Sequence record: PV730301.1
Reading direction: 5' to 3' (one strand)
DNA: 44,881 bases
Source: a phage
The notes under the pieces were generated by a model. That model had not been told where the DNA came from. It worked only from the letters and a program-made list of their open reading frames with translations, and searched no databases. Shown in pieces: positions 6,131 to 42,028 of this stretch. The first letter of the stretch is position 1. Each line of letters begins with the position of its first letter. The position numbers were made by a program, and so were the translations under genes.

Positions 6131-6160
6131 TTTAAACTCCTTCATTGTTGGTGTAAGTGA

Positions 6161-6189
6161 ATAGTACCCTATTATATTGGGGTGCGCAA
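6161..6189 (-). promoter_or_regulatory. sigma70-like promoter for the Imm/phosphoesterase operon (TTGCGC-17-TACTAT) containing the conserved TGAATAGT..CTATTATA element
   Basis: Hexamers and 17-bp spacing read from the sequence; the 23-mer is identical to 41997..42019. Confidence 0.45.
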
Positions 6190-23051: not shown

Positions 23052-23081
23052 ACTATAATAGCTAACTATTCAGGTTGTCAA
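23052..23081 (-). promoter_or_regulatory. sigma70-like promoter (TTGACA-18-TATAGT) with the conserved element
   Basis: Intergenic; hexamers read from the sequence. Confidence 0.5.
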
Positions 23082-26054: not shown

Positions 26055-26083
26055 ACTATAATAGCAAACTATTCACATGTCAA
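26055..26083 (-). promoter_or_regulatory. sigma70-like early promoter (TTGACA-17-TATAGT) with the conserved element
   Basis: Hexamers read from the sequence; a second weaker copy (TTGATA-17-TAATTA) at about 26099..26127. Confidence 0.5.
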
Positions 26084-26147
26084 TGGGCTTTTCTAAAATA
26101 ATTAATATGGTACTATTCACATATCAACCGACTAAGGAGTAATTGAC

Positions 26148-29511: not shown

Positions 29512-29540
29512 TTGCACACCCCGACATAATAGGATACTAT
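29512..29540 (+). promoter_or_regulatory. sigma70-like promoter (TTGCAC-17-TACTAT) with the conserved element
   Basis: Hexamers read from the sequence; same architecture at 30871..30899. Confidence 0.5.
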
Positions 29541-29568
29541 TCACTTATCAAAACGAAACCGAGGAGCG

Positions 29569-30870: not shown

Positions 30871-30899
30871 TTGCACACCTGGATATAATAGCCTACTAT
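30871..30899 (+). promoter_or_regulatory. sigma70-like promoter (TTGCAC-17-TACTAT) with the conserved element
   Basis: Hexamers read from the sequence. Confidence 0.5.
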
Positions 30900-30930
30900 T
30901 CATTTACACAAACGAGAGGAGAGACAGAAG

Positions 30931-32751: not shown

Positions 32752-33041
32752 GCCTCGCAACTGACATCCTGAAACGAAGCGGCATTGCGCCGCTGTCACC
32801 GAGAGCTAAAACACAGATATACAAGCGCCGCCGTAACGCGCTGTACCCGGAGATTCAGGCCAGACGCAAAGCGGTCCGCGCCTGTGGGTTCCAGAACGGG
32901 AGGGCGGTGAATCTCGGTGAGTTCAAGACAAAGGAACGCGCCGCTATCGCTAATCGGTTATTTAATTACTGGAAATCGCTGGGATACGATGATATTCCGA
33001 CGAAACCACAGAGACGACAATACATCTGGAGACATAAATGA
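32748..33041 (+). CDS. hypothetical basic protein
   Basis: ATGA coupling on both sides; Arg/Lys-rich. Confidence 0.45.
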   Translation: MSLATDILKRSGIAPLSPRAKTQIYKRRRNALYPEIQARRKAVRACGFQNGRAVNLGEFKTKERAAIANRLFNYWKSLGYDDIPTKPQRRQYIWRHK

Positions 33042-33478
33042 CTACTATCGCGTTCGACGGAAAGACAATGGCCTGTGATACCCGTGTTGTGTGCGGAAGT
33101 AACTGCTACAACACAGACATAAAGATATACGAGAATGATACTTATGTTATAGGGGTAGCGGGTGACGCTGGAGTTGGCACTATGCTTATCGATTGTCCGG
33201 GTATTCTTCGACCACAGCCCTACGACTTCGATTTCGAGGCCCTGGTGTTCGTGAAAGACACAGAAAAGGTGTATAAAGTCGCGTTTTATAAATCATGGGA
33301 TTGTGCACTTAGTTCGGTTATTCCAATTGCGGATAGCTTCGCCGCCGTGGGGTCTGGCTCGCCCTATGCGTTAGCCGCTATGGAATGCGGGTATTCGGCG
33401 CATGGTGGTGTAGCTGTTGCCTCGAAGTTCGACACTAACACCGGCGGCAAGATTATTACCAAACAACTATTAGGATAA
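33038..33478 (+). CDS. HslV/proteasome beta-like Ntn-hydrolase peptidase
   Basis: N-terminal MTTI (Thr nucleophile after Met removal), VIGVAGDAGVGTML and AAVGSGSPYALAA resemble HslV motifs. Confidence 0.65.
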   Translation: MTTIAFDGKTMACDTRVVCGSNCYNTDIKIYENDTYVIGVAGDAGVGTMLIDCPGILRPQPYDFDFEALVFVKDTEKVYKVAFYKSWDCALSSVIPIADSFAAVGSGSPYALAAMECGYSAHGGVAVASKFDTNTGGKIITKQLLG

Positions 33479-33537
33479 TTCCTACCCGTGGTATCCTCCA
33501 GTTACTGCATACTTAATACGCACCTGGAGGATTCATC

Positions 33538-33846
33538 TTGGATAAATTTACTGAAACAGTGACAGGGTGGCTTCTCGCCGCCGCACTAGCCGGAGGGGTC
33601 ATCGGGCTACGACAACATAAGTCCGTTATTTCTGGCCCCATCGACGGGTTCTGCTTTATTGCAACTGGCTTCACCTGCGCCGTATTTGGCGCACCTCTCG
33701 CAGCTCAATGGTTCGGCATTACCGGCGAACGCGAAATAGCTGGCCTCGGATTTATCATCGCTGTTCTCTGGATGCCTATCTATTCCCGCCTTTCTGGCAT
33801 CGTCGCCGGAGAATACATCGCACGTCGAGGAGGCCCGGATGAATGA
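33538..33846 (+). CDS. holin (three predicted TM helices), TTG start
   Basis: Hydrophobic segments; position before the endolysin; GGAGGA 6 nt before the only available start (TTG). Confidence 0.55.
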   Translation: MDKFTETVTGWLLAAALAGGVIGLRQHKSVISGPIDGFCFIATGFTCAVFGAPLAAQWFGITGEREIAGLGFIIAVLWMPIYSRLSGIVAGEYIARRGGPDE

Positions 33847-34111
33847 GTTATTCTGGTTCGGCGGTATGCTGGCAATCGGAGGCACATCGCTGTTTAACGT
33901 GTATCATCCCAGCGTTGACGACGGATTATTTGGCCGTGTGCTCTATATCCTGACCGCTATTGTCTGCGCCGCCGGGTGTATCCACCTGTTACAGGGCAGC
34001 ATGTCACCAACGCTGCCCGAGACCTTAATTACATTAGTTGCGCTGCGCCAGATTCGCCAGGCGTGGCTGTCATACGGAGGACATAAGCGTGTCTCGAAAT
34101 ATTTCAGATAA
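33839..34111 (+). CDS. holin/antiholin-like membrane protein
   Basis: Two hydrophobic segments; ATGA coupling; lies between holin and endolysin. Confidence 0.45.
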   Translation: MNELFWFGGMLAIGGTSLFNVYHPSVDDGLFGRVLYILTAIVCAAGCIHLLQGSMSPTLPETLITLVALRQIRQAWLSYGGHKRVSKYFR

Positions 34112-34577
34112 TGGGTTGCATTTCACTGCCGCGTTCGAGGGGTTCCGCGGAACTGCGTATCGCGCTACACCGAATGAGAAGTACCTGACTATTGGGTATG
34201 GAAGCTATGGCCCGCATGTTAAGGCTGGACAGACCATCACGCCGGGGCAAGGCCTCCTGTTACTTAACCGTGATATGGCTAAGGCCGTGGCTGCGGTTGA
34301 TGCAGCGGCGCACCATTCACTGACACAGGCGCAGTTCGATGCCGTGTGCGACCTGGTCTACAACGCCGGTGCAGGCGTGATTGCCGCTACTACAGGCACA
34401 GGTAAGGCGCTGCGCTCAGGTGATACCGTGACGCTGCGGGCCAAGCTGGCACTGTTCATCAACCAGAACGGCAAACCGTTACTTGGCCTGCGTCGCCGTA
34501 CTGCGGGTCGTCTTGCACTGTTCGACGGTAAACCGTGGCAGGAGGCGGAGGCTATCGGGCGCGCGGTGAAAGGTTGA
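34089..34577 (+). CDS. endolysin, GH24 lysozyme (P22 gp19-like)
   Basis: FEGFRGTAYRATPNEKYLTIGYG and QFDAVCDLVYNAG match the phage lysozyme pattern; GTG start with GGAGGA RBS. Confidence 0.8.
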   Translation: MSRNISDNGLHFTAAFEGFRGTAYRATPNEKYLTIGYGSYGPHVKAGQTITPGQGLLLLNRDMAKAVAAVDAAAHHSLTQAQFDAVCDLVYNAGAGVIAATTGTGKALRSGDTVTLRAKLALFINQNGKPLLGLRRRTAGRLALFDGKPWQEAEAIGRAVKG

Positions 34578-41956: not shown

Positions 41957-41999
41957 TTTAGTAAACCTCTATTTTTATTAAATAACACCGATGTGATGA

Positions 42000-42028
42000 A
42001 TAGTACCCTATTATATTGGTGTCTGCAA
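42000..42028 (-). promoter_or_regulatory. sigma70-like promoter (TTGCAG-17-TACTAT) with the conserved 23-mer
   Basis: Same 23-mer as at 6158..6180. Confidence 0.45.

What the first reader, a model, noticed from the sequence alone, without database searches (positions are those of the whole stretch)
33489..33540. Shine-Dalgarno sequence of the holin sequestered in a 9-bp hairpin, with a TTG start
Seen in sequence: ATCCTCCAG (33493..33501) and its exact complement CTGGAGGAT (33524..33532) flank a 22-nt loop, and the right arm contains the GGAGG ribosome-binding site. The only start codon in the holin frame is TTG at 33538, six nt after the RBS. Inference: holin translation is deliberately throttled, a lysis-timing device.
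Basis: partly seen in the sequence, partly recalled or inferred. Interest (0 to 1): 0.4.

Follow-up and report, generated by a model that had tools for sequence, protein, structure and literature searches.

The report
Ribosome-site-hiding hairpin before phage holin
A conserved RNA hairpin hides the ribosome-binding site of the first lysis gene of this E. coli phage; this is a known kind of safety catch on phage lysis genes, seen here in a phage group where it had not been described.

Summary
ATCCTCCAG (33493-33501) and CTGGAGGAT (33524-33532) form a perfect 9-bp stem around a 22-nt loop. GGAGG lies in the 3' arm, and TTG at 33538 is the first possible start of a PHROG-classified holin.

The window is a Kagunavirus. 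All 121 GenBank relatives carry the segment, which is far less variable than the flanking coding sequence. Homologous holins in Jerseyvirus, Cornellvirus-like, Dhillonvirus, Serratia, Klebsiella, Enterobacter and Scapp phages have a hairpin at the same place with different stem sequences.

The "constant throttle" reading is only partly supported.
- In three sister lineages the hairpin is followed by a T-run, and one record annotates it as an intrinsic terminator.
- In every lineage a -10-like element (here TG-n-TATCCT, 33489-33497) overlaps or abuts the 5' arm. A transcript started there would begin in the loop and lack the anti-SD.

My best reading is the phage T4 lysozyme (gene e) design. 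The hairpin silences the holin on read-through RNA, and an embedded weak promoter makes translatable mRNA. The promoter is inferred only; no transcription-start data exist. This is a new member of a known kind, of moderate interest.

The parts
33461..33491 (+). Conserved non-coding block 5' of the hairpin. It contains the -35-like TTAGGA (33470-33475; TTAAGA in other isolates) and the motif GGATAATTCC (33473-33482). In this window it overlaps the last codons and the stop (33476-78) of the HslV-like gene.
   Evidence: Homology with phages lacking the HslV gene resumes at about 33461-33468. The block is 89% identical to the LSPA1-type relative, against 80% for the holin CDS. Related GGATAAATCC / AGATTAATCC motifs occur upstream of the holin in all Guernseyvirinae examined.
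33489..33497 (+). Extended -10-like element TG-n-TATCCT, overlapping the first five bases of the 5' arm. This is a putative weak sigma-70 promoter; the predicted start is around 33503-33506, inside the loop.
   Evidence: T33489, G33490 and TATCCT are invariant. The 'n' (33491) is G in 22 and C in 18 distinct sequences. The same motif occurs in Jerseyvirus (TG[C/T]TAATCT), the Cornellvirus-like lineage (TG[A/C]TAA[T/C]CT) and Dhillonvirus (TGATATAGT). TATACT with TTGCAG-N18 occurs in the Serratia, Klebsiella and Enterobacter lineages. This is inferred only; the consensus scan does not call it.
33493..33501 (+). 5' arm of the hairpin (anti-SD, AUCCUCCAG).
   Evidence: It is invariant apart from A33500G (gives G-U) and C33498T (gives U-G) in single lineages.
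33502..33523 (+). 22-nt A/U-rich loop with a possible inner 3-bp stem (33506-08 with 33520-22).
   Evidence: It is almost invariant within Kagunavirus. In LSPA1-type phages the loop shortens to 14 nt because the stem grows to 13 bp.
33524..33532 (+). 3' arm of the hairpin (CUGGAGGAU), containing the Shine-Dalgarno GGAGG (33526-33530).
   Evidence: It is invariant except for one metagenomic contig with T33525C, which breaks one pair.
33533..33540 (+). Spacer UCAUC plus the UUG start codon. There is no U-tract, so the element is not terminator-like here.
33538..33846 (+). First lysis gene: a 102-aa holin or antiholin. I count three hydrophobic (probable transmembrane) segments by eye.
   Evidence: PHROG phrog_2359 'holin', E = 5e-29, match from residue 1. 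There is no Pfam match. It is annotated holin or antiholin in relatives; the Sciku record cites TMHMM for three transmembrane domains in its homologue.
33839..34111 (+). Second small lysis protein (holin or antiholin, 90 aa). It overlaps the first gene by 8 nt and has its own strong SD, GAGGAGG (33827-33833).
   Evidence: PHROG phrog_2508 'holin', E = 4e-34; sequence.
34089..34577 (+). Endolysin (GTG start, SD GGAGGA at 34076-34081).
   Evidence: Pfam Phage_lysozyme, E = 2e-25; PHROG endolysin.

Best explanation
**What it is.** The hairpin is a functional RNA structure that hides the holin's Shine-Dalgarno sequence on every transcript that enters the lysis cassette from upstream. It works like the hairpin in front of phage T4 gene e (lysozyme).

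**Proposed mechanism.**
1. RNA started at the rightward promoters about 2.6 kb upstream contains both arms. It folds into the 9-bp stem (about -14 kcal/mol alone) and is poorly translated for the holin.
2. A weak extended -10 promoter (TG-n-TATCCT, 33489-33497) overlaps the 5' arm and starts transcription at about 33503-33506, in the loop.
3. That mRNA lacks the anti-SD and can be translated, but only slowly, because the promoter is weak and the start codon is UUG.

**Sister genera.** The same hairpin carries a U-tract there and also terminates upstream transcription. Kagunavirus has kept only the translational lock.

**Status of each step.**
- Shown: the stem, its conservation, covariation across lineages, the position of the SD in the 3' arm, the weak start codon, and the conserved -10-like element with fixed geometry.
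- Inferred: that the promoter fires, where it starts, that read-through RNA reaches the hairpin, and the size of the translational effect.

**Confidence.** The figure of 0.45 is for this full gate model. The narrower statement that the stem hides the SD on RNA carrying both arms I put at about 0.85.
For: **The hairpin itself.**
- Stem and fold.
- Chance level: 2 of 3000 shuffles.
- Positions 33492-33563 are nearly invariant in 40 distinct relatives, while the flanks are polymorphic. All 121 GenBank records with the segment are at least 80% identical, and 114 are at least 95% identical.

**Same position, different stems.** Homologous holins in other lineages carry a hairpin with the SD in the 3' arm:

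| Lineage | Arms | Tail |
|---|---|---|
| Jerseyvirus | AATCTCCGAA / TTCGGAGATT | T-run |
| Cornellvirus-like | CTCCGTAT / ATACGGAG | no T-run |
| Dhillonvirus | AGTCCCAGT / ACTGGGACT | T-run |
| Klebsiella VLCpiS11a | CCCCCGAAT / ATTCGGGGG | T-run |
| Serratia Tsm2 | GCCTCGG / CTGAGGC | no T-run |
| Enterobacter phiEap-2 | CCCCTG / CAGGGG | no T-run |
| Scapp | GCCCC / GGGGC | no T-run |

- Per-lineage shuffle tests give 0-10 of 3000 for five of these.
- On a stem-registered alignment, 92.6% of cells pair, 8 of 13 pairs change on both sides, 0 of 500 shuffles reach the observed score, and slid controls give 31-50% pairing.
- RNAalifold finds the same helix on that alignment.

**The embedded promoter.**
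- The fixed positions of TGnTAnnnT are invariant and the n positions vary, within and between four genera.
- In T/V/E, TTGCAG and TATACT and their 18-nt spacing are invariant, while the spacer just before the -10 varies.
- The 36-nt -35..-10 block is 81-89% identical within clades, against 67-80% for the CDS.
- A simple PWM ranks this site first or second in the 150 nt upstream of the holin in 14 of 15 sequences. The predicted start always falls within a few nt of the arm/loop boundary.
- Removing the 5' arm lowers the computed cost of opening the SD and start: on average 13.4 to 8.9 kcal/mol in 59 Kagunavirus variants, and 10-20 to 3.5-10 kcal/mol in other lineages.

**Precedent.** T4 e, soc, 49 and I-TevI use exactly this logic (PMC3014915).
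Against: - No transcription-start, toeprint or reporter data exist for any of these phages.
- The putative promoter is weak by consensus: -10 matches 4 of 6, -35 matches 3 of 6. It is not called by the standard scan, nor by the published promoter prediction for the related phage fBC-Eco01.
- The motif TGNTANNNT is common by chance. Its support is comparative and was noticed after the fact.
- In this window the truncated RNA is still predicted to hide the SD through G-U-rich pairing with codons 8-13. The opening cost is 12.7 kcal/mol with 40 nt of coding sequence and 7.4 kcal/mol with 60 nt. Opening energies swing with the context chosen.
- Among crude gene calls the holin start is only 10th of 82 in opening cost.
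- Within Kagunavirus the arms hardly vary, so covariation comes from between-genus comparison on a hand-registered alignment.
- In Jerseyvirus the alternative TATAAA element would give a start that retains most of the 5' arm.
Confidence: 0.45

Rival explanations
1. Constant translational throttle. All holin mRNA is read-through RNA carrying both arms. The hairpin lowers 30S binding by a fixed factor and, together with UUG, sets a slow holin accumulation rate and so the lysis time.
For: - Everything that supports the stem also supports this model.
- No canonical promoter is detected between the upstream genes and the holin.
- Weak start codons recur in homologues: TTG in Kagunavirus and Scapp, GTG in Jerseyvirus.
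- The large A/U-rich loop could serve as a ribosome standby site (my inference from known standby-site cases).
Against: - It does not explain why TG (33489-90) and the 30-nt block 5' of the stem are conserved irrespective of the upstream gene.
- It does not explain why a -10-like hexamer keeps a fixed distance to the arm/loop boundary in eight lineages with different stems.
- In Jerseyvirus and Dhillonvirus a strong terminator-like hairpin abuts the start codon, so read-through alone would have to supply all lysis mRNA.
Confidence: 0.33
2. Degenerate intrinsic terminator. The hairpin's main job is to stop or attenuate transcription from the upstream genes, and the SD lies in its 3' arm only because the genome is compact.
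For: - The positionally equivalent hairpins of Jerseyvirus, Dhillonvirus and Klebsiella phage VLCpiS11a are followed by 5-7 T.
- The Ent1 record annotates the hairpin as a putative rho-independent terminator.
Against: - In Kagunavirus the tail is UCAUCUUG and the loop is 22 nt. The terminator scan finds nothing here.
- The Cornellvirus-like, Tsm2, phiEap-2 and Scapp lineages also lack a T-run but keep the stem and the SD in the 3' arm.
- The anti-SD/SD core is the most conserved part of the stem in all lineages.
Confidence: 0.08
3. Recognition site for a trans-acting factor. A phage or host RNA-binding protein or small RNA binds the stem-loop, as a translational repressor or activator would. 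The loop sequence rather than the stem would then carry the specificity.
For: The 22-nt loop and the first eight codons are almost invariant within Kagunavirus, including synonymous sites. Simple SD sequestration does not require that.
Against: - Loop sequence and length differ completely between genera (7-22 nt), and loops vary within Jerseyvirus and Dhillonvirus.
- There is no Rfam match.
- No candidate factor was identified.
Confidence: 0.06
4. Chance complementarity, or a DNA-level element with no RNA role.
For: A 9-bp match to an SD can arise by chance somewhere among the starts of about 80 genes. The holin is not the most structured start in the window.
Against: Conservation in 121 genomes, independent stems at the same site in at least five other lineages, and compensatory changes.
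Confidence: 0.03

Closest known systems
Phage T4 gene e (lysozyme) translation-initiation-region hairpin; also T4 soc, 49 and I-TevI (McPheeters et al. 1986, as reviewed in PMC3014915)
   Same: - A lysis gene sits downstream of earlier-expressed genes.
- The SD is sequestered in a hairpin on long read-through transcripts.
[quoted passage not shown]
- Here the stem, the SD position and a conserved -10-like element in or next to the 5' arm reproduce that geometry.
   Different: - The gene is a holin, not the endolysin.
- The phage is an unrelated siphovirus.
- The putative promoter is a host sigma-70 extended -10 type, not a gp55-dependent TATAAATA late promoter, so a temporal switch is not evident.
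- The start codon itself is outside the helix.
- Promoter activity and the translational effect are untested here.
- In sister genera the same hairpin also looks like an intrinsic terminator, which is not part of the T4 e description.
Phage lambda S gene upstream stem-loop (sdi) controlling the S105/S107 dual start (summarised in PMC3369941)
   Same: [quoted passage not shown]
   Different: - Lambda's structure partitions initiation between two start codons (Met1 and Met3) that give an antiholin and a holin.
- Here there is no dual-start motif. The protein begins M-D-K-F-T-E-T-V, and the next in-frame start is GTG at codon 8 without an SD.
- A separate second small membrane protein is encoded downstream.
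Rho-independent terminators that overlap the next gene's RBS, as annotated in Salmonella phage vB_SenS-Ent1 (NC_019539, 39696-39735)
   Same: The hairpin is positionally equivalent and lies upstream of a homologous holin. The SD is in the 3' arm and the anti-SD core CUCC is shared.
   Different: The Kagunavirus hairpin has no U-tract and has a 22-nt loop, so it fails the terminator pattern.
Type I toxin mRNAs such as tisB or hok, whose primary transcript is translationally inert because a 5' element pairs with the RBS region (my own knowledge, not checked here)
   Same: A membrane-damaging small protein is kept silent by intramolecular pairing that hides the ribosome-binding site. A 5'-shortened RNA is the active form.
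   Different: There the active form arises by RNA processing and an antisense RNA is involved. Here the short form would arise from an alternative start site, and no antisense RNA is indicated.

Membership tests
T4 gene e-type RBS-sequestering hairpin with embedded promoter | The SD and/or the start codon are base-paired in a stable local helix. | tested here: met
   GGAGG lies in the 9-bp perfect stem. The isolated hairpin has -14.2 kcal/mol. The start codon itself is unpaired in the MFE structure.
T4 gene e-type RBS-sequestering hairpin with embedded promoter | A promoter lies in or just upstream of the 5' strand, so that its transcripts lack that strand. | tested here: inconclusive
   TG-n-TATCCT overlaps the 5' arm, and the predicted start is at about 33504 in the loop. 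Equivalent elements with the same geometry occur in eight lineages. The site is weak by consensus, is not called by the standard scan, and has no start-site data.
T4 gene e-type RBS-sequestering hairpin with embedded promoter | Longer transcripts from upstream promoters run through the hairpin. | tested here: inconclusive
   The hairpin lies on the same strand as a cluster of small genes from about 30,930, with no terminator-like site on the + strand between about 30,800 and 33,490. Published RNA-seq of a Kagunavirus gives no coverage detail.
T4 gene e-type RBS-sequestering hairpin with embedded promoter | Translation is measurably repressed on the long RNA and relieved on the short RNA. | not testable with these tools
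   Only computed opening energies are available: a mean of 13.4 against 8.9 kcal/mol over 59 variants, and these depend on context.
Lambda S-type sdi / dual-start holin control | A stem-loop includes the holin's ribosome-binding site. | tested here: met
Lambda S-type sdi / dual-start holin control | Two closely spaced start codons give a holin and an antiholin from one gene. | tested here: not met
   Codons 1-8 are TTG GAT AAA TTT ACT GAA ACA GTG. There is no second start within the first few codons, and GTG at codon 8 has no SD.
Intrinsic (rho-independent) terminator | A G+C-rich stem with a short loop (about 3-8 nt). | tested here: not met
   The stem has 5 G-C of 9 pairs, but the loop is 22 nt. 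The scan reports no terminator here.
Intrinsic (rho-independent) terminator | A U-tract lies directly 3' of the stem. | tested here: not met
   The tail is UCAUCUUG, with 4 U in 8. The feature is met in Jerseyvirus, Dhillonvirus and VLCpiS11a.
Any curated RNA family (Rfam 15) | A covariance-model match at or near the gathering score. | tested here: not met
   There is no match over 33000-34200 apart from two chance-level snoRNA hits elsewhere in that stretch.

The most novel reading that the evidence does not exclude
One compact 50-nt module does three jobs with the same bases. The 5' arm is at once an anti-SD, half of a (former) terminator, and the -10 element of the lysis promoter. Upstream transcription is stopped or rendered untranslatable, and only RNA born inside the hairpin can make holin. 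This would be a host-sigma-70 version of the T4 gene e switch, conserved across Guernseyvirinae, Dhillonvirus and Scappvirus. In Kagunavirus the terminator function has been lost and the lock is purely translational.
Probability: 0.4. Interest if true: 0.55.

Novelty: new member of a known kind. Interest (0 to 1): 0.4.

Why it matters
- Holin dosage sets the time of lysis, and therefore burst size and fitness.
- In these widely used therapeutic-candidate phages (Kagunavirus, Jerseyvirus, Dhillonvirus) the lysis cassette sits among small genes of unknown function. How premature lysis is avoided there has not been addressed.
- A conserved RBS lock, possibly combined with an internal promoter and in some genera a terminator, gives a concrete and testable answer.
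- It also gives a handle for engineering lysis timing.
- The "terminators" annotated upstream of Jerseyvirus holins should not be read as simple operon ends.

Tried and rejected
- **Rfam search of the region:** nothing relevant.
- **Standard promoter and terminator consensus scans:** no call at the hairpin.
- **Literature searches for start-site or transcriptome data on Kagunavirus, Jerseyvirus or Guernseyvirinae:** one RNA-seq paper was found. It only places the lysozyme gene in the 'middle' class and has no per-base or per-gene table.
- **Published promoter and terminator predictions for fBC-Eco01:** nothing between the upstream gene and the holin.
- **Small hairpin ACUG-AAA-CAGU in codons 5-8 (33550-33560), considered as a second lambda-like structure:** rejected, because the only variants there (33552 T>C, 33558 A>T) break pairs.
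- **The 5-bp UAGGA/UCCUA hairpin at 33471-33484:** its variants do not covary.
- **Plain MAFFT alignments of the hairpins across genera:** these mis-registered the arms. I therefore used an N-padded, hand-registered alignment and say so.
- **Genome-wide ranking of SD opening energy:** the holin is high but not an outlier (10th of 82), and my gene calls were crude.
- **RNA thermometer reading:** considered and set aside, because the stem is a perfect 9-bp Watson-Crick helix without the mismatches typical of thermometers (my own knowledge).

Full report
**What the window is.**
- The 2 kb around the finding matches Kagunavirus phages of E. coli (subfamily Guernseyvirinae) at 85-90% identity. Relatives annotate the genes here as HslV-family peptidase, two holins and an endolysin.
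- In the window the ORFs are:
  - an HslV-like gene at 33038-33478;
  - a 102-aa protein from TTG 33538 to 33846;
  - a 90-aa protein at 33839-34111;
  - a lysozyme from GTG 34089.
- PHROGs calls the two small proteins holins and the third an endolysin. Pfam recognises only the lysozyme.

**The observation.**
- ATCCTCCAG (33493-33501) and CTGGAGGAT (33524-33532) are exact reverse complements around a 22-nt loop. GGAGG (33526-33530) is in the 3' arm and TTG is at 33538.
- TTG is the first start after the in-frame stop at 33514-16. GTG at 33559 and a later ATG are also in frame, so "the only start codon" is too strong.
- TTG is nevertheless well supported:
  - it never varies;
  - it aligns with the ATG of the Dhillonvirus homologue (MDK...);
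  - the PHROG profile matches from residue 1.
- The 82-nt leader folds at -20.3 kcal/mol (z = -2.5). The hairpin survives in a 211-nt context.
- A perfect stem of this length with its 3' arm next to the start arises in 2 of 3000 shuffles.

**Conservation within the genus.**
- In 40 distinct related sequences, positions 33492-33563 show only singletons. These positions cover the arms, loop, spacer, start and first eight codons.
- The 30 nt upstream and the coding sequence from 33564 onward carry many variants at intermediate frequency.
- All 121 GenBank records with this segment keep it; 114 are at least 95% identical.
- Three stem variants were seen. Two make G-U pairs (A33500G, C33498T) and one, in a single metagenomic contig, breaks a pair (T33525C).
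- LSPA1-type Salmonella phages extend the stem to 13 bp.
- The genus alone therefore gives conservation but no double compensatory change.

**Other genera.**
- The holin has homologues in Dhillonvirus, Jerseyvirus, a Cornellvirus-like group, Serratia Tsm2/Otaku, Klebsiella VLCpiS11a/37P2, Enterobacter phiEap-2 and Serratia Scapp.
- Each has a hairpin directly before the start, with the SD in the 3' arm and an anti-SD core (CUCC, CCCC) in the 5' arm. The flanking pairs differ between lineages.
- Erwinia phage RF1 has no such hairpin. Its homologue faces divergently transcribed genes.
- Per-lineage shuffle tests are significant for five lineages.
- MAFFT mis-registered the arms, so I registered the stems by hand on the SD core, padding with N. 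On that alignment:
  - 92.6% of cells pair;
  - 8 of 13 pairs show changes on both sides;
  - no shuffle of 500 reaches the observed pairing or covariation;
  - slid controls fall to 31-50% pairing;
  - RNAalifold recovers the helix on the same alignment.
- The alignment is fitted to the structure and the rows are related. The alignment-free shuffle tests are therefore the safer evidence.

**What the hairpin does.** Three facts complicate the simple "throttle" reading.
1. *Terminator-like relatives.* In Jerseyvirus, Dhillonvirus and VLCpiS11a the stem is followed by 5-7 T. In Ent1 it is annotated as a putative rho-independent terminator that overlaps the holin start. Kagunavirus, the Cornellvirus-like group, Tsm2, phiEap-2 and Scapp have no T-run but keep the stem. 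SD sequestration is therefore the common denominator, and termination is an extra in some lineages.
2. *Conserved sequence 5' of the stem.* It is conserved whatever gene lies upstream, and it reads as an extended -10 promoter.
   - In Kagunavirus it is TG-n-TATCCT. T, G and the hexamer are invariant, and n (33491) is the only dimorphic site.
   - Jerseyvirus has TG[C/T]TAATCT, the Cornellvirus-like group TG[A/C]TAA[T/C]CT, and Dhillonvirus TGATATAGT.
   - Tsm2, VLCpiS11a and phiEap-2 have TTGCAG-N18-TATACT. The hexamers and the spacing are invariant, while the spacer next to the -10 varies.
   - Within clades this 36-nt block is more conserved than the holin gene.
   - A simple position-weight scan ranks it first or second upstream of the holin in 14 of 15 sequences. 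The start predicted 7 nt after the hexamer always falls at the end of the 5' arm or in the first bases of the loop.
3. *Genomic position.* The cassette lies about 2.6 kb into a rightward cluster of small genes that begins at a divergent control region near 30.9 kb. I found no + strand terminator-like site between about 30,800 and the hairpin.

**The resulting model.**
- These facts reproduce the published design of T4 gene e.
  - Read-through RNA forms an inhibitory hairpin over the RBS.
  - Late promoters in the DNA encoding the 5' strand make RNA that cannot form it.
  - The reported difference in lysozyme synthesis is about 100-fold (PMC3014915).
- Computed opening energies for the SD and start fall when the 5' arm is removed.
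  - The mean falls from 13.4 to 8.9 kcal/mol over 59 Kagunavirus variants.
  - The drop is larger in the other genera.
- These values depend on how much flanking sequence is folded. In this particular window the short RNA can still pair the SD with codons 8-13.
- I therefore rank the transcript-selective gate first (0.45) and the constant throttle second (0.33). Both share the well-supported statement that the stem hides the SD on RNA carrying both arms. I put that shared statement at about 0.85.
- The weak UUG start (GTG in Jerseyvirus, TTG in Scapp) lowers output under either model.

**Comparison with known systems.**
- The element works like the T4 e/soc/49/I-TevI hairpins. In a looser sense it resembles the lambda S sdi stem-loop (PMC3369941).
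- It lacks lambda's dual start. In this genus it fails the terminator pattern, and it has no Rfam family.
- I found no description of it in the Kagunavirus genome papers I read.
- It is a new member of a known kind. If the promoter is real, the fusion of anti-SD, -10 element and (in sister genera) terminator in one stem would be a modest new variant.

**Limits.**
- No experiment or start-site data bear on any step after "the stem exists and is selected".
- The promoter was noticed after the fact.
- Some IMG/VR and metagenome contigs were fetched twice, so locus counts overstate independent genomes. I counted distinct sequences.

Noticed in passing
window 6158-6177 (+), 23053-23072 (-), 26056-26075 (-), 26100-26119 (-), 29524-29543 (-), 30883-30902 (-), 41997-42016 (+): There are seven copies of the 20-nt motif TGAATAGTAnCCTATTATAT (0.05 expected by chance). 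In context they are the spacer and -10 of canonical sigma-70-type promoters, e.g. TTGACA-N17-TATAGT. They share an inverted repeat, AATAG...CTATT, that could be an operator. A paper on phage fBC-Eco01 lists the motif as a 'phage RNAP promoter', although I know of no RNA polymerase encoded by these phages.
   Followed up: partly
window 33038-33478: The HslV-family peptidase gene just upstream of the hairpin is present in only some Kagunaviruses. In the others the preceding gene (ending ...YIWRHK*) abuts the conserved leader, and homology resumes at about 33461. The lysis leader therefore behaves as a unit that is independent of its upstream neighbour.
   Followed up: partly
L194 (Salmonella phage VT223, PP280813) 900-1140: This is a mosaic Jerseyvirus. 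It carries a Kagunavirus-type leader plus the first ~20 codons of the Kagunavirus holin, fused in frame to unrelated sequence. About 190 nt downstream follow the normal Jerseyvirus hairpin and holin. In the relic the TG of the -10-like element is CG, and the outermost stem pair is broken (GGAGGAC).
   Followed up: partly
window 33541-33563 and 33571-33599: The first eight holin codons show almost no synonymous variation. Downstream lie a second anti-SD-like CUUCUC (33571-76) and a GGAGGGG (33593-99). In folds these compete for the SD and for the 5' arm, which makes computed accessibilities very context dependent.
   Followed up: partly
window 33827-33846 and 34076-34111: The second small lysis gene starts at ATG 33839. 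It overlaps the holin stop by 8 nt and has a strong SD, GAGGAGG, inside the holin's 3' end. The endolysin starts at GTG 34089 with GGAGGA and overlaps the second gene by 23 nt. Only the first gene of the cassette has a hidden SD.
   Followed up: no
window 33634-33650: A weak terminator-like hairpin (GGCCC...GGGTT plus CTGCTTTATT) lies inside the holin gene. The fBC-Eco01 paper also predicts a terminator inside its holin gene. It may be noise.
   Followed up: no
window 33473-33482; L058-L073, L187-L193 upstream regions: A short near-palindromic motif recurs upstream of the holin in every Guernseyvirinae lineage examined: GGATAATTCC in Kagunavirus, GGATAAATCC in Jerseyvirus and the Cornellvirus-like group, and AGATTAATCC in the Serratia, Klebsiella and Enterobacter phages. 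Its distance from the hairpin differs between lineages. Its function is unknown; it may be a regulator site.
   Followed up: no
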